In this document: one piece after another, positions 2,546 through 16,907 of the stretch
Layout of the letters: the number at the start of each line of letters is the position of its first letter
Position numbering within the stretch: the first letter of the stretch is position 1
The notes under the pieces: model-generated
Database searches by the model: none
Told to the model about the DNA's origin: nothing
The model's input: only the letters and a program-made list of their open reading frames with translations
Sequence record: NC_049830.1
Direction: 5' to 3' (one strand)
Origin: Escherichia phage PGN590
Length of the DNA stretch: 49,043 nt
Position numbers and translations under genes: made by a program

Positions 2546-2570
2546 CCCCGCTTTTAGCAATTCGTGCTAT
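2546..2570 (-). promoter_or_regulatory. divergent repeat copy (AATAGCACGAATTGCTAAAAG), promoter-like
   Basis: overlaps TAG of kinase gene; GC hairpin then TATAAT (plus-strand 2526-2531). Confidence 0.45.
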
Positions 2571-3157
2571 TTGATCTTAACGTGTTTCCACTGGACAGTT
2601 TTGATGATCTCGTCAACTGTCTTTTCTGGATCGCCATCAGTCATTGTGAAGTCGTAATGTTTTATGCGGTGATGGTATCCGCTCAGGTCAATATAGTTTC
2701 GTGAATCGCCATCAAACGTGAAACCTTCGCGGTGCAGTCTGCAAATGTGAACTTCATGGCCTGCCTTAACGAGCGGCTTGATTTCTTCAGGAAATCCGCC
2801 ATCACTAATTACAACAGCCAAATCCCTGCACATCTCGTGTACTTGCTCAACCATGCGATTTCCGAAATATTGCTCGCCAAAAGCTGGCTTCATAATTTCT
2901 TCGCTAATCCAGATCATGAACTGGCGAGGCGACTTGCCTTGCAAGATTGCTTGAGGCTTTTCTTTCTGCTCGCGGTCGTTATACAGATCAATAAACTCGT
3001 CATATCGGTAAACGCCAAGCATGGAGAATGCAATATCAAACATAGGCTGTTTAAACGACGCTTTAACGGCTGCGTAACGATGACCTGTTAAGTATGCCGC
3101 AAGCGTATCCTTGCCAACTCCTGGCGGTCCGTTAAGGATTATAATGTCTCGCTTCAT
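2567..3157 (-). CDS. P-loop nucleotide/polynucleotide kinase-like protein
   Basis: Walker A LNGPPGVGKDT near N-terminus; GGAG RBS before ATG 3155-3157. Confidence 0.6.
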   Translation of the reverse strand: MKRDIIILNGPPGVGKDTLAAYLTGHRYAAVKASFKQPMFDIAFSMLGVYRYDEFIDLYNDREQKEKPQAILQGKSPRQFMIWISEEIMKPAFGEQYFGNRMVEQVHEMCRDLAVVISDGGFPEEIKPLVKAGHEVHICRLHREGFTFDGDSRNYIDLSGYHHRIKHYDFTMTDGDPEKTVDEIIKTVQWKHVKIK

Positions 3158-3351
3158 ATTAATTTTCTCCATATTGGATTGAATGTTTACCTGGACGCTG
3201 GCGCTTCTTGCGATAGCGTTGATTCGTCTCTTGGTGCTCGTGGTAGCTGTATCGCTTCTTTTTGGATACGATTTTCTCGAAGTTTCGCATCTTCATGATC
3301 TCATGTTGTTATCTCAACATAGCGCACTGCATGAATGCGCTATAGCAAGAA

Positions 3352-3537
3352 TCACCACTTAAATCCGCTTTCATCCCGCACAATCTGGTAAAGCGCCACC
3401 CAAAACCACACAAACCAGAAAATCAGAACAAGATGCTGATCTTTATCAGTGCAATCACACTCTTTAACCAATGCGCGGAAGATGAATAATCCTGAAATAT
3501 AAAAGAAAACCACTAAAAATACAAGTAACCAAATCAT
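3352..3537 (-). CDS. small membrane protein
   Basis: AAGGAGG RBS; two hydrophobic segments (LLVFLVVFFYISGLFIF, LIFWFVWFWVALY). Confidence 0.45.
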   Translation of the reverse strand: MIWLLVFLVVFFYISGLFIFRALVKECDCTDKDQHLVLIFWFVWFWVALYQIVRDESGFKW

Positions 3538-3611
3538 TTATTGCCTCCTTCAATTACCAGCGTGTAAAGCAGAACTGGATTTTGCATGTCGCGGCGGCGC
3601 GGCTCTAGTTG

Positions 3612-3797
3612 CTAATCTAGCCATGCACATTTACCGTTCGCCACAATATAACCCACCAGGTCACTAAGTTTTGATATACCGTCTCGACTAATCACGTTGT
3701 ATGCAACGTCTTCGCCGTCAATGGAATGGATAGCAAAGAAACTTGGCGCGCCGTCAATCTTGTCTACCGCTTTGAAAAACTCCACTTTATTAGCCAT
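3612..3797 (-). CDS. hypothetical protein
   Basis: ATG 3795-3797 preceded by conserved leader CATCGACAACAAACGAGGATTAAATC. Confidence 0.5.
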   Translation of the reverse strand: MANKVEFFKAVDKIDGAPSFFAIHSIDGEDVAYNVISRDGISKLSDLVGYIVANGKCAWLD

Positions 3798-3853
3798 GAT
3801 TTAATCCTCGTTTGTTGTCGATGGGCTTACTATACCGCAAGCCCGATAATCTG

Positions 3854-3873
3854 TTTTTGCAAAAAGTGCTATT
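3854..3873 (-). promoter_or_regulatory. intergenic repeat (variant TTGCAAAAA), promoter-like
   Basis: overlaps TAG of phosphatase gene; TATAGT 22 nt downstream, then conserved leader. Confidence 0.5.
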
Positions 3874-4582
3874 CAGCGTTAACAAAATCGCCGTCACTAT
3901 GATCGAATGACCAGGTACATCCAGAATCATCATGAACTATAAAGCTCTTGTCATGATAAGAAACAACGTCATAGGCTATTCCTCTAGTAAAGCTGGCATT
4001 GACCAAGCTGTCTTTGCTGCCGACGAATCTGGCGCGCTTCGTGATCTTGATGACCTCAACGCCGTGCGATTGGATGTGACTATGTGGCTTGTCGTATTCC
4101 GTGACCTGATAGGTTGTGATTCCCAGGCTGCGGAAGTGCTTAACCACGTTAGGCGAATCATCAAAAGCGCACACAATGTTTTCCAGTCCGATAGCGCGTA
4201 AGACTTCTTCTTTGATGATTGTGTCTTTGCGGTTATCTTCCTTGCGGCGCATGATTAACGCATCGTACTTGATGCCGCTTTCGTTAAGCCATTTGCAGGT
4301 GTCCGCCATTACTTCGTCGCTACGTCCGGTCAGGATAACAATGGCAAATCCTGACATCCATAATCCGTTAACCACTGCAACCGTGCTCTTAATCGGCGAA
4401 TCTCCAACAGCCGCCTTATTGAACTCAGACCAGCTTTCTGTAAGGTGCAAATCTTCTGTCGGAAGCAGGTGCAAGCGATGCGTTCCATCGGATAAAGTGC
4501 CGTCAAGATCAACAATAACAATCGGCTTGCTGGTGGAAAAATGGTATTTGCTGCCCCAAAGTTCAAATTCGTATTTTTTCAT
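3869..4582 (-). CDS. HAD-superfamily phosphatase (polynucleotide 3'-phosphatase-like)
   Basis: DxDxT motif VIVDLDGTLSDG near N-terminus; ATG 4580-4582. Confidence 0.6.
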   Translation of the reverse strand: MKKYEFELWGSKYHFSTSKPIVIVDLDGTLSDGTHRLHLLPTEDLHLTESWSEFNKAAVGDSPIKSTVAVVNGLWMSGFAIVILTGRSDEVMADTCKWLNESGIKYDALIMRRKEDNRKDTIIKEEVLRAIGLENIVCAFDDSPNVVKHFRSLGITTYQVTEYDKPHSHIQSHGVEVIKITKRARFVGSKDSLVNASFTRGIAYDVVSYHDKSFIVHDDSGCTWSFDHSDGDFVNAE

Positions 4583-4593
4583 TATCAAACCTA

Positions 4594-4815
4594 TCAATTA
4601 AAGTGGATTTGCTTGTATTCGATTTCATCTGCCAGATCATTTAACTTATCCGCCAGCTTGCGCACCTGGTCAATGGTGAGTATTGACCTAAAATCCGGCC
4701 TGCGCCCACCCTCAAACGTGCCATCAATAAACACGCGATCTCCGAACTTATATACTTCAAGTGAATCACCATGATTATCAATAAACTTGTGCTTGACGCG
4801 CTTATTTGTTTCCAT
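4594..4815 (-). CDS. hypothetical protein
   Basis: ATG 4813-4815 with GAGGAAG RBS. Confidence 0.5.
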   Translation of the reverse strand: METNKRVKHKFIDNHGDSLEVYKFGDRVFIDGTFEGGRRPDFRSILTIDQVRKLADKLNDLADEIEYKQIHFN

Positions 4816-5330: not shown

Positions 5331-6212
5331 TCAAATCTTTACCTCCCACTTAACCATCGTTCCGCGCTTGATGCTGATCTCACCTGCAACAGTCCGGTTT
5401 TTAGAGCCGCCATAGTGAAGCAGGAGGATAACAACATCATCATGAATCTCGATAGTCTTTGGTTTCGCCGTTAATTCATACCAGATGCCGTCATCAAGCT
5501 GGACTCCTTTTAGCGTAGCTGCAAGTGGCATATCTTCAATGGCGCTCTGACTTACGAGGTTTCGCGCAACAATGCCATGCCCATTGATTGTTTGACTGTG
5601 AATCTGTTCACCAATACGTCGCGCGGCGTTATCTATAGCCTGAGCAATGTGTGACTTACCGCCACCGATTGGCGCATCTCCAAACAAGTGTTTTGTAATG
5701 TCTTCCACATAGTAAATCTTATCTTTTTCATTGTGCGGATTGTATTTATTATGACCATTAACAAAGAAATCCACCTTAAGCTCTGATTTCTGACCATCGC
5801 TATAAACGCCATTGTCGCGCGATGTGTAGCGAATCGTTGAATTACCAGCGGAGCGGAAAGTGATCGGATATTTGATATTATCCACGTCTAAGCACCACAA
5901 TTTTTTGTAGTCGCATGTATTCATCTTGATCATCGGAATCTCTGCGCGTTCCGGTGAGCGCACCGGTAACACCTGGCCCCTGTATGGCTTGTAGTGGAAA
6001 CATGTATATCCTGGCATTGCATAGCCGTAGTCTTTTCGCGAGTTATAGTGCTTGTTATGCACATCAATGAAGTACTCAATCTCCATTGATGAAACACCAG
6101 GCTTTCCGTATTCGTTAAACGTAGTGCATGTATTTTCATCGGTGAACATGAAGTGTCCGACCCCCTTTGATTGGAAGGTGATCGGGAATTTGATGTTAGC
6201 AAGTTTTAACAT
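5331..6212 (-). CDS. hypothetical protein with tandem duplicated N-terminal domain
   Basis: AGGAGA RBS; NIKFPITFQSKG...FIDVHNKHYN repeated as NIKYPITFRSAGN...FVNGHNKYNP; IGGGKSH Walker-A-like segment. Confidence 0.55.
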   Translation of the reverse strand: MLKLANIKFPITFQSKGVGHFMFTDENTCTTFNEYGKPGVSSMEIEYFIDVHNKHYNSRKDYGYAMPGYTCFHYKPYRGQVLPVRSPERAEIPMIKMNTCDYKKLWCLDVDNIKYPITFRSAGNSTIRYTSRDNGVYSDGQKSELKVDFFVNGHNKYNPHNEKDKIYYVEDITKHLFGDAPIGGGKSHIAQAIDNAARRIGEQIHSQTINGHGIVARNLVSQSAIEDMPLAATLKGVQLDDGIWYELTAKPKTIEIHDDVVILLLHYGGSKNRTVAGEISIKRGTMVKWEVKI

Positions 6213-7508: not shown

Positions 7509-7829
7509 AGCATCTACTCCTTTTGTTGCGTTTAAACTGGATGCATTATTGCCTTGCCTCTCCTACATGTCAATATATTTTGTGTTTTAACAACAATTTT
7601 TGGCATGTGGCGCGTTTAAAGATAACAAAATGCTTCAGTTAAGTCATTGGTTTTTATGTTAAAAATGACCCTGTTGACTTGGTTGACGGAGGATTGCTTC
7701 ATACCCATATATATACATACAAAAATCACCACGCATCATCATTGATTAAAAAATATACAATCACACATACATATCACCACAAACAATACCAATCCACCAC
7801 ATACCCATAGAACAAGCACAACAGTAAAT

Positions 7830-15693: not shown

Positions 15694-16809
15694 TCAATCA
15701 GCCATTTCCGGATAATGCATAAATCGCCCCACTTCTCCGTATTCTTTATCGTAAACAATAACAGCCGCACGGCGACGGGAACGCCATCCACCGCGCGCCG
15801 CATATGCATCTTTTGCCGCCATAGTGCTGTGCACTTCAACAATGCCCAGGCTTGTTTCAGTTACTGTCTGATGATGCCAGTGCCCTACGTGAGCATACAT
15901 CATTTTTGAATTTCCGAAGTCTTCGCGCCAGTCTGCCGCACACATCATGAGCAATGTTTCAGGCTTGCGTATAGTGTGCCCATGATGGTATGCCAGGAAT
16001 GTCTTGCCATATTGTGTGTGATGAACTACTCGCGGAGAAACATCAACATGCACTCGTGGCTCATTCTCATATGCTGCCGCCATTGCTGCGCGCAACCAGA
16101 TCATGCCGCTTTGGTCGTGGTTGCCCTCAATTATCTGAATCTCGACGTTTTTGTGTTTTGATAACAGCTTTGCTATTGCTCGACGCACTGACCGGATTGC
16201 AACGTAAACAAGTTTTGCGTATCGACTATCTTGATCCAATACGTGACCGCTTGCAGGTGTTACCGCTTCCAGTCCGTCGCTGTGAAGCATATCACCACCA
16301 ATCAGCAAGACAGCTTTTTCACTATCCGGCGCGCACTGTATGGAATAATCAATGAAATTATTCATTACGCGCTCTGCTGTTGCTGTATCCCAATTCTCGC
16401 CGCATTCATGCTTATGCGCCATTGCGCCCAGGTGCATATCAAAGATCGGATACAGTGATAACGTCTCGCTATAATCCTTTTGTGATTCCGGTTGCGGATC
16501 AAGTCGCGGAACTTCTTCGCTAAATGCATCCATAGCGGCCTGCATTAATGCTTCTAACTGTTCGCGGTCCTTGCTTGTCTTAATCCATGTCATAACCACA
16601 TTTCCATCTTTATCAATTAGCTTTGATTCTCCAGTAACACCAAAACCAGGTGATCCGATGGTTGTAACTTTACCTTGCTTTGCTAATCGTGCTGCGCGGC
16701 GCTCAATGCTTCGAACGTTCATACCATACTCATTAGCGATCTGCTTATATGTCTTTCCCTGCTTGCGCTCATTGATAAATTGTTCATCTGTTATTTTGAT
16801 TTGCTTCAT
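15694..16809 (-). CDS. HTH-domain calcineurin-like metallophosphoesterase
   Basis: N-terminal HTH (KTYKQIANEYGMNVRSIERR); DxH (FDMHLG), GDxxH (GGDMLHSDG), GNHD motifs; ATG 16807-16809 after AAGGAG. Confidence 0.6.
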   Translation of the reverse strand: MKQIKITDEQFINERKQGKTYKQIANEYGMNVRSIERRAARLAKQGKVTTIGSPGFGVTGESKLIDKDGNVVMTWIKTSKDREQLEALMQAAMDAFSEEVPRLDPQPESQKDYSETLSLYPIFDMHLGAMAHKHECGENWDTATAERVMNNFIDYSIQCAPDSEKAVLLIGGDMLHSDGLEAVTPASGHVLDQDSRYAKLVYVAIRSVRRAIAKLLSKHKNVEIQIIEGNHDQSGMIWLRAAMAAAYENEPRVHVDVSPRVVHHTQYGKTFLAYHHGHTIRKPETLLMMCAADWREDFGNSKMMYAHVGHWHHQTVTETSLGIVEVHSTMAAKDAYAARGGWRSRRRAAVIVYDKEYGEVGRFMHYPEMAD

Positions 16810-16907
16810 CAAAAATTCTCCTTATCTCATTATGACAACATACACAATAGAGATCGCCATCATAACAGGTAAGGGCAAAAGTAACAAACGCCACATGATA
16901 ATAATCC

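What the first reader, a model, noticed from the sequence alone, without database searches (positions are those of the whole stretch)
2567..4582. Split Pnk-like pair: P-loop kinase and HAD phosphatase encoded as separate genes around two small membrane-protein genes
2567-3157 has a kinase-type Walker A (GPPGVGKDT) and 3869-4582 has the HAD DxDxT motif (DLDGTL). Together they resemble the two halves of polynucleotide kinase-phosphatase, an RNA/DNA end-healing enzyme that in T4 counters tRNA-cleaving host defence. Here they are separate genes flanking two small genes, one of which (3352-3537) is a predicted two-TM membrane protein. No RNA ligase signature (KxDG) was found nearby, so the repair pathway, if any, would rely on a host ligase.
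Basis: inference. Interest (0 to 1): 0.45.

Follow-up and report, generated by a model that had tools for sequence, protein, structure and literature searches.

The report
Phage 3'-phosphatase and nucleotide-kinase gene pair
A T1-like coliphage carries a polynucleotide-kinase-type 3'-phosphatase gene and a T4 gp1-like nucleotide kinase gene that travel together across many phages and are sometimes fused, so they work as a unit, more likely in DNA-precursor or DNA-end metabolism than in tRNA repair.

Summary
On the minus strand, 2567-3157 encodes a 196-aa P-loop kinase (GPPGVGKDT) and 3869-4582 a 237-aa HAD phosphatase (DLDGTL). Three small ORFs lie between them, not two; one has two hydrophobic segments. 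The window is a Drexlerviridae (Hanrivervirus-like) genome, and relatives already annotate the pair as 'polynucleotide kinase' and 'dNMP kinase'.

The two genes are nevertheless coupled. In 76 of 77 phosphatase-anchored loci the kinase follows on the same strand. Two metagenomic proteins are phosphatase-kinase fusions. A helix-turn-helix metallophosphoesterase, and sometimes an ATP-dependent DNA ligase, is usually adjacent. The window has no RNA ligase, no DNA ligase and no tRNA gene.

My best reading (0.45) is that this is a DNA-breakdown and dNTP-supply module. A true split end-healing enzyme remains possible (about 0.3). No experiment exists for either.

The parts
3869..4582 (-). 237-aa stand-alone PNKP-type HAD 3'-phosphatase. 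The catalytic domain is about residues 1-165. A lineage-specific 58-aa beta domain (residues 180-237) is encoded at 3872-4045.
3612..3797 (-). 61-aa acidic small ORF of unknown function, inserted between the phosphatase and kinase genes.
   Evidence: ORF with a GAGGA ribosome-binding site. No Pfam or PHROG hit. The content of this spacer differs between relatives.
3352..3537 (-). 61-aa small protein with two hydrophobic segments, a likely membrane protein (phrog_9755, function unknown).
   Evidence: phrog_9755 at 1e-27. AAGGAGG ribosome-binding site. Two Kyte-Doolittle hydrophobic segments.
3159..3296 (-). 45-aa very basic small ORF (net charge +10). Its stop abuts the kinase start codon.
   Evidence: phrog_8176 at 1e-5 and a weak Pfam Phage_1_1 hit at 0.0085. 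Charge. A gene at this position in JakobBernoulli is annotated 'putative DNA-binding protein'.
2567..3157 (-). 196-aa P-loop kinase of the T4 gp1 / phosphomevalonate-kinase fold group, annotated in relatives as dNMP kinase, ATP-binding protein or P-loop NTPase.
15694..16812 (-). 372-aa helix-turn-helix plus metallophosphoesterase protein (phrog_704, 'DNA repair exonuclease'). It is the recurrent third partner of the pair in other phages, but here it sits 11 kb away beside the lysis genes.
   Evidence: phrog_704 at 4e-151. MPE motifs DMH, GD, GNHD, HHGH and GHWHH can be read in the translation. Weak Pfam Metallophos and HTH hits. It lies directly upstream of phosphatase-kinase in 27 of 80 kinase loci and directly downstream of the fusion gene in L176.

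Best explanation
Two co-functioning early genes of a T1-like phage encode an active PNKP-type 3'-phosphatase and a T4 gp1-like nucleotide kinase. Together with the phage's HTH-metallophosphoesterase nuclease they form a conserved module. The module most likely feeds phage DNA synthesis from DNA breakdown products in three steps.

1. The nuclease releases nucleotides.
2. The phosphatase removes 3'-phosphates from DNA ends, oligonucleotides or 3',5'-bisphosphates that would otherwise block that route.
3. The kinase converts the resulting 5'-dNMPs to dNDPs.

What is shown: family membership of each protein, intact catalytic residues, and genetic coupling (linkage and fusion).
What is inferred: the substrates and the pathway.

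On this reading each enzyme keeps the chemistry known for its family, and the module is not a tRNA-repair system.
For: Kinase family:
- The kinase shares a PHROG with gp1.
- gp1 dNMP-pocket residues R68, R132, M135, W152, D175 and E181 map to R62, R78, M81, F98, D119 and E125, which are invariant or nearly invariant in the family (residue list from PMC10653934 Table 2).

Nucleotide-metabolism context of relatives:
- Homologs at 34-36% identity in Vequintavirus and in 145-kb Klebsiella phages lie beside thymidylate synthase and ribonucleotide reductase genes.
- A distant relative is fused to a nucleoside 2-deoxyribosyltransferase.
- gp1-type kinases are experimentally established dNMP kinases (T4, T5, P. 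putida PP_1964; PMC10653934).

Phosphatase:
- All Pnkp catalytic residues are kept, but T4 R279 is lost. From memory of the T4 Pnkp structure work, R279 is thought to hold a backbone phosphodiester of the polynucleotide substrate.
- The stand-alone clade has a 14-residue helical insertion after motif I and also scores above the Pfam cut-off for class B acid phosphatases. From memory, that family includes nucleotidases.
- A homolog sits immediately after nrdB in a phage that also has a full Pnkp.

Coupling:
- 66 of 80 kinase-anchored loci and 76 of 77 phosphatase-anchored loci carry both genes on one strand in the same order.
- Two fusion proteins exist. One is followed directly by the MPE gene.

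Other: the window has no RNA ligase and no tRNA gene. A 2026 paper independently guessed 'nucleotide supply' for this pair (PMC13164509).
Against: - No member of this kinase subfamily or of the stand-alone phosphatase clade has been assayed.
- Two of the four gp1 residues that bind the dNMP phosphate are lost: K37 becomes F40 and R177 becomes G121, within an invariant DGGF. The kinase also misses the Pfam DNMK model.
- Every characterised enzyme I know of that joins a PNKP-type phosphatase to a kinase is a polynucleotide end-healing enzyme.
- The phosphatase and the kinase do not catalyse obviously consecutive steps unless the substrate is a 3',5'-bisphosphate, so this model does not readily explain the fusion.
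- An ATP-dependent DNA ligase directly downstream in at least 13 of 80 loci, and a 'DNA repair exonuclease' upstream, fit an end-processing cassette equally well.
- The sampled loci are dominated by Drexlerviridae, so part of the linkage is shared ancestry.
Confidence: 0.45

Rival explanations
1. True split (and sometimes fused) polynucleotide kinase-phosphatase. The gp1-like kinase has been recruited to phosphorylate 5'-OH nucleic-acid ends while the HAD enzyme removes 3'-phosphates. Together they heal DNA or RNA breaks made by host nucleases or toxins. Sealing would be done by a phage DNA ligase where one is present and by a host ligase in T1-like phages.
For: - The phosphatase is a bona fide PNKP-family member with the full catalytic set.
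- There is obligate-looking linkage and two natural phosphatase-kinase fusions. The fusions are in the phosphatase-first order that, from memory, mammalian PNKP also has.
- Tight operons of MPE-phosphatase-kinase-DNA ligase, or MPE-kinase-DNA ligase, occur in several podophage-sized contigs. The second resembles the kinase / MPE-phosphatase / ligase composition of bacterial Pnkp.
- Loss of the gp1 R177 equivalent, within an invariant DGGF, could open the acceptor site.
Against: - Most of the gp1 nucleotide pocket is retained.
- The same active-site signature is present in homologs that lack any phosphatase partner and sit among ThyX/RNR genes.
- The window has no ligase of any kind.
- In jumbo phages, end-healing enzymes track with RNA ligases (PMC7824862), and RNA ligases are absent here.
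- T7 sets a precedent for a ligase gene near a nucleotide-kinase gene without any end healing (my own knowledge).
Confidence: 0.3
2. The two genes have independent functions. A DNA 3'-phosphatase serves replication or recombination, and a dNMP kinase serves precursor supply. They are neighbours only through inherited synteny of DNA-metabolism genes.
For: - In the window they are separated by three unrelated small ORFs (0.7 kb). In relatives the spacer reaches up to 2.2 kb, and per the KanT1 paper and an HNH endonuclease lies there in T1.
- Kinase homologs exist without the phosphatase (14 of 80 loci, plus Vequintavirus), and the phosphatase exists without the kinase (RB49-like phage; L165).
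Against: - Two fusion proteins share a conserved linker motif, GPELHG.
- The pair stays together, in the same order, in two different genome positions within Drexlerviridae and in unrelated phage groups.
- 4-bp or longer gene overlaps occur in many loci.
Confidence: 0.12
3. Pool-editing or counter-defence role at the small-molecule level. The HAD enzyme would hydrolyse a particular mononucleotide or a nucleotide-derived immune signal bearing a 3'- or 2'-phosphate. The kinase would re-phosphorylate or trap the wanted species.
For: - The stand-alone clade has a cap-like insertion and lacks the R279 equivalent.
- The pair lies in an early-gene arm full of small accessory ORFs.
Against: - Nothing points to a specific signal molecule.
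- The best structural and sequence matches remain the polynucleotide phosphatases.
- The consistent partners are DNA enzymes.
Confidence: 0.08

Closest known systems
T4 polynucleotide kinase-phosphatase (Pnkp, pseT; PDB 1LTQ, 5UJ0)
   Different: The kinase is a different P-loop family (gp1-like, not Pnk-like). The genes are separate and in the order phosphatase then kinase. The R279 equivalent is absent and there is a 14-residue insertion after motif I. There is no companion RNA ligase. The partners are an MPE nuclease and sometimes a DNA ligase.
T4 gp1 deoxynucleoside monophosphate kinase (PDB 1DEK; Pfam DNMK; phrog_139), with T5 Dnk and P. putida PP_1964
   Different: Only 17% identity. The window kinase lacks the roughly 36-residue insertion of gp1. 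It misses the Pfam DNMK model. K37 and R177 are not conserved. It is genetically tied to a 3'-phosphatase, which gp1 is not.
Pnkp1 of the bacterial Pnkp1-Rnl-Hen1 RNA repair complex (PDB 4XRP)
   Different: Pnkp1 is a fused Pnk-type kinase-phosphatase that works with an RNA ligase and Hen1. None of those partners is present here.
Mammalian PNKP (from my own knowledge)
   Same: Domain order is phosphatase then kinase, as in the phage gene order and in the fusions P0358 and P0365. It acts on DNA ends.
   Different: The mammalian kinase domain is Pnk-type, and the protein has an FHA domain. Homology of the kinase parts is not supported.
T7 gp1.7 nucleotide kinase with the gp3/gp6 host-DNA breakdown route (from my own knowledge)
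   Same: It is a functional analogy for the favoured model: a phage nucleotide kinase that recycles dNMPs released from host DNA, encoded near the DNA ligase gene.
   Different: The protein fold is unrelated, and T7 has no associated 3'-phosphatase.

Membership tests
Bifunctional polynucleotide 5'-kinase/3'-phosphatase (T4 Pnkp type) | DxDxT acylphosphatase (HAD) domain with the Pnkp catalytic constellation | tested here: met
Bifunctional polynucleotide 5'-kinase/3'-phosphatase (T4 Pnkp type) | Kinase domain homologous to the Pnk kinase (P-loop plus acceptor-site Asp/Arg residues) | tested here: not met
Bifunctional polynucleotide 5'-kinase/3'-phosphatase (T4 Pnkp type) | Both activities on one polypeptide | tested here: not met
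   In the window they are separate genes 0.7 kb apart. Fused versions exist elsewhere: P0358 of 403 aa and P0365 of 461 aa.
Bifunctional polynucleotide 5'-kinase/3'-phosphatase (T4 Pnkp type) | 5'-OH polynucleotide kinase and 3'-phosphatase activities on nucleic-acid ends | not testable with these tools
   This needs enzyme assays.
Bifunctional polynucleotide 5'-kinase/3'-phosphatase (T4 Pnkp type) | Companion RNA ligase for tRNA repair | tested here: not met
   No RnlA-like or ligase-like sequence in the window. None is annotated in the close relative. There are no tRNA genes.
Pfam HAD_PNKP (PF25109) | Score above the curated gathering threshold | tested here: met
   78.2 bits against a cut-off of 27.6, covering residues 26-167 of the 242-aa ORF 3869-4597 that was scanned (21-162 in the 237-aa numbering used elsewhere), which match profile positions 3-140 of 143.
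gp1-type dNMP kinase (Pfam DNMK PF21448 / phrog_139) | Profile membership | tested here: inconclusive
   phrog_139 at 7e-51, and T4 gp1 itself falls in phrog_139 at 2e-65. There is no Pfam DNMK hit even at E 0.1. A sequence profile finds no PDB relative beyond the P-loop.
gp1-type dNMP kinase (Pfam DNMK PF21448 / phrog_139) | gp1 fold with an NMP-binding helical domain and a lid | tested here: met
gp1-type dNMP kinase (Pfam DNMK PF21448 / phrog_139) | Residues that bind the dNMP phosphate (gp1 K37, R68, R132, R177) | tested here: inconclusive
   R68 maps to R62 and R132 to R78, both invariant. K37 maps to F40, with an invariant K36 one turn earlier. R177 maps to G121.
gp1-type dNMP kinase (Pfam DNMK PF21448 / phrog_139) | dNMP to dNDP activity | not testable with these tools
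   This needs an assay or complementation of tmk or gmk mutants.
Class B/C acid phosphatases, from memory nucleotidases (Pfam PF03767, HAD IIIB) | Profile score and fold closer to these than to PNKP phosphatases | tested here: not met

The most novel reading that the evidence does not exclude
The pair, and its fused forms, would be a third, independently assembled class of polynucleotide kinase-phosphatase. In it, a gp1/phosphomevalonate-kinase-type P-loop kinase has displaced the Pnk-type kinase. It would work with an HTH-metallophosphoesterase, and in some phages with a DNA ligase, as a complete clean-and-seal cassette. That cassette would let phages survive host nucleases that leave 3'-phosphate/5'-OH breaks.
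Probability: 0.25. Interest if true: 0.6.

Novelty: new variant of a known kind. Interest (0 to 1): 0.4.

Why it matters
Automatic annotation in public phage records labels the stand-alone phosphatase 'polynucleotide kinase' or '3'-phosphatase, 5'-polynucleotide kinase'. That label is wrong for the kinase half, because the protein has no kinase domain.

The real kinase partner is a separate gp1-like gene that is often left as 'hypothetical' or 'ATP-binding'. Recognising phosphatase plus gp1-like kinase plus HTH-metallophosphoesterase as one conserved, sometimes fused, module gives a concrete and cheap set of experiments in a tractable model: the BASEL phage Bas07 or T1.

Either outcome is useful. 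One would define a new route by which small lytic phages turn DNA breakdown products into precursors. The other would reveal a non-orthologous end-healing enzyme relevant to nuclease-based immunity and possibly useful as a reagent.

Tried and rejected
- Sequence searches of the kinase against PDB gave only P-loop matches, both as a single sequence and as a profile. Structure prediction was needed.
- Pfam gave no family for the kinase. NCBIfam gave nothing above cut-off for either protein.
- The scan of bacterial genomes found only 6 weak loci. It did not recover the experimentally studied P. putida PP_1964, so no direct bridge to a tested enzyme could be made.
- IMG/VR scans for relatives of the two fusion proteins found nothing. 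Exact-sequence look-ups succeeded instead.
- Teplyakov 1996 (the gp1 structure paper) and Burroughs & Aravind 2016 were not available. The gp1 contact residues were therefore taken from Table 2 of PMC10653934.
- A literature search for experiments on T1-like 'kinase-phosphatase' genes returned only annotation-level statements. The retron Eco2 paper mentions Drexlerviridae and PNK only in unrelated contexts.
- The 'PNKP adenylyltransferase and ligase domain' annotation of the gene next to the kinase in an Edwardsiella phage was checked. The gene is an ordinary ATP-dependent DNA ligase (PF01068 plus the OB domain), not an RNA-repair ligase.
- The 'DNA polymerase exonuclease subunit' next to Vequintavirus kinase homologs is DnaQ-like, not a metallophosphoesterase.
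- The phrog_221 metallophosphoesterase has no PDB sequence relative.
- Promoter and terminator scans around the pair were not enriched over shuffles.
- I could not inspect model coordinates, so I did not analyse acceptor-pocket geometry.
Full report
**What the window is.** The 2-6.3 kb region is 83-91% identical to many T1-like coliphages of Drexlerviridae/Tempevirinae, such as pSf-1, JakobBernoulli (Bas07), egaa and herni. The annotated relative shows the same gene order. All genes from about 7.5 kb down to position 1 run on the minus strand. They form an arm of mostly small ORFs typical of early genes.

**Checking the observation.** ORF 2567-3157(-) encodes 196 aa beginning MKRDIIILNGPPGVGKDT. 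ORF 3869-4582(-) encodes 237 aa containing VIVDLDGTL. Both have the lengths annotated in relatives.
- The kinase hits phrog_139 at 7e-51.
- The phosphatase hits Pfam HAD_PNKP at 9e-22, far above its cut-off, and phrog_415 at 6e-66.
- Three small ORFs, not two, lie between them. The 61-aa product of 3352-3537 has two hydrophobic segments and a strong ribosome-binding site.
- No ligase and no tRNA gene is present.

**The phosphatase.**
- By sequence, the only solved relatives are Pnkp1 (4xrp, 1e-7) and T4 Pnkp (5uj0 and 1ltq).
- An alignment with a T4-type Pnkp shows the nucleophile and acid-base aspartates D25 and D27. It also shows the equivalents of D187, S211 (here Thr, a substitution I recall being tolerated in T4 Pnkp), R213, R246, D254, K258, D277 and D278. 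The roles of D165, D167, K258, S211 and D278 are described in PMC3592404.
- Two differences mark the stand-alone clade. First, the R279 equivalent is Ser, Leu, Ala or Asn. Second, a conserved 14-residue insertion (HRLHLLP...ESWxEFN) forms two short helices after motif I.
- The window protein also carries a 58-aa C-terminal beta domain found in only 25 closely related phage records.

**The kinase.**
- Pfam, NCBIfam and PDB sequence searches gave only P-loop matches.
- T4 gp1 itself belongs to phrog_139.
- Profile alignment to gp1 covers the GKDT P-loop and the LNGKSP motif. In global mode it covers 179 columns at E 6e-8. Alignment to a T4-type Pnkp covers only 25 P-loop columns.
- I mapped the gp1 contact residues tabulated in PMC10653934. 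R68, R132, M135, W152, D175 and E181 correspond to family-invariant or nearly invariant R62, R78, M81, F98, D119 and E125.
- K37 and R177 are not conserved. R177 falls on G121 of an invariant DGGF.
- BFVD structural neighbours are nearly all annotated dNMP kinase. One distant relative is fused to a nucleoside 2-deoxyribosyltransferase.

**Genomic coupling.** I sampled loci anchored on each gene.

| Sample | Result |
|---|---|
| 80 IMG/VR loci anchored on the kinase | 66 carry the phosphatase upstream on the same strand: 34 with a spacer of more than 150 bp (689-2171 bp in the phosphatase-anchored set), as in the window, and 32 tightly adjacent |
| Same 80 loci | 36 have a metallophosphoesterase gene upstream; at least 13 have an ATP-dependent DNA ligase immediately downstream |
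| 77 loci anchored on the phosphatase | 76 have the kinase downstream |

- The tight layout MPE-phosphatase-kinase occurs in Klebsiella Webervirus, where the phosphatase and kinase genes overlap by 4 bp, and in an Aeromonas autographivirus. It also occurs in contigs of about 44 kb.
- An Edwardsiella phage has MPE-kinase-ligase.
- The kinase profile was searched against 1.84 billion representative proteins and found 4178 relatives. Two of the top 150 are fusions with an N-terminal HAD_PNKP domain carrying the clade-specific insertion. They share a conserved linker motif and have the kinase at the C-terminus.
- One fusion is encoded as a single ORF on three contigs, including a 60-kb phage contig. 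There it is followed directly by a 43%-identical homolog of the window's HTH-MPE.
- The window's own HTH-MPE (15694-16812; phrog_704; MPE motifs visible in the translation) sits 11 kb away next to the lysis genes.

Functional coupling of phosphatase and kinase, and association with the MPE, is therefore well supported.

**What the module does.** Two coherent models remain.

*Salvage model.* Each protein keeps its family's known chemistry: a nuclease, a 3'-phosphatase and a dNMP kinase that convert DNA breakdown products to dNDPs. Support comes from:
- the kinase's fold and pocket;
- kinase homologs among ThyX/ThyA and RNR genes in large myoviruses;
- a stand-alone phosphatase directly after nrdB in an RB49-like phage that already has Pnkp and RnlA;
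- the absence of RNA ligases, which normally accompany end-healing enzymes in phages (PMC7824862);
- the independent suggestion of 'nucleotide supply' in PMC13164509.

*End-healing model.* The gp1-like kinase would have become a 5'-OH polynucleotide kinase. Support comes from:
- the fusion and linkage pattern itself, since all characterised PNKP-phosphatase/kinase combinations I know of are end-healing enzymes;
- the neighbouring DNA ligase and 'DNA repair exonuclease';
- the loss of the gp1 R177 equivalent.

The same DGGF signature occurs in homologs with no phosphatase partner. I cannot examine pocket geometry, so I favour salvage at about 0.45 against end healing at about 0.3. tRNA repair specifically is the least supported version of the second model.

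**Comparison with known systems and novelty.**
- The phosphatase is a member of the PNKP phosphatase family.
- The kinase is a divergent member of the gp1/PMK fold group, but its membership of the curated DNMK family is not established.
- The pair is not a member of the T4 Pnkp family, because the kinase criterion fails.
- The genes themselves are common and already annotated, partly wrongly, in hundreds of phage records. Their co-occurrence downstream of the exonuclease was noted in 2026.
- Among the papers I could search, I found no description of the fusions, of the three-gene module across unrelated phage groups, or of the non-Pnk nature of the kinase, and no experiment on any of them.

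I rate this a new variant of a known kind, of moderate interest.

Noticed in passing
window 3872-4045 (-), residues 180-237 of the phosphatase: A confidently modelled 58-aa beta-rich C-terminal domain is appended to the phosphatase. By tblastn it occurs in only 25 Tempevirinae phage records and never as a separate gene. Most homologs are about 160-180 aa and lack it.
   Followed up: partly
window 15694-16812 (-): A 372-aa protein with an N-terminal helix-turn-helix and all metallophosphoesterase motifs (phrog_704, 'DNA repair exonuclease'). No Pfam hit above threshold and no PDB sequence relative. It is the recurrent neighbour of the phosphatase-kinase pair in other phages.
   Followed up: partly
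IMG/VR loci L121, L122, L124, L153, L157, L158, L160: In these Webervirus-like loci the tblastn matches to phosphatase and kinase overlap by 102-132 nt in different reading frames. This suggests a longer phosphatase gene overlapping the kinase gene.
   Followed up: no
window 5331-6212 (-): The 293-aa protein of unknown function (phrog_7116) looks internally duplicated: NIKFPITFQSKG... and NIKYPITFRSAG... The PHROG match comes in two stretches.
   Followed up: no
window 7545-7573 (-): A near-consensus sigma-70 promoter (TTGACA, 17 nt, AATAAT; 11 of 12) lies at the divergent junction upstream of the leftward gene arm that contains the pair. The scan as a whole was not enriched over shuffles.
   Followed up: no
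GenBank records such as MG065657.1 (related loci, not in the window): About 20 records of roughly 50 kb named 'Campylobacter phage' match this E. coli T1-like region at megablast level. One (MG065657.1) encodes a phosphatase 91.6% identical to the window's. They are probably T1-like contaminants or mis-assigned hosts.
   Followed up: no
BFVD entries A0A6J5RPH7 and A0A7S6HV70: Kinase relatives occur fused to a nucleoside 2-deoxyribosyltransferase (297 aa) and within a 518-aa protein annotated as containing a DOD-type homing endonuclease domain, in Escherichia phage JEP1.
   Followed up: no
locus L092 (Krischvirus RB49-like phage MT478991): A 158-aa stand-alone PNKP-type phosphatase (43% identical to the window's) overlaps the end of nrdB by 4 bp. 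The same phage also encodes a full-length Pnkp and RnlA about 4 kb away.
   Followed up: partly
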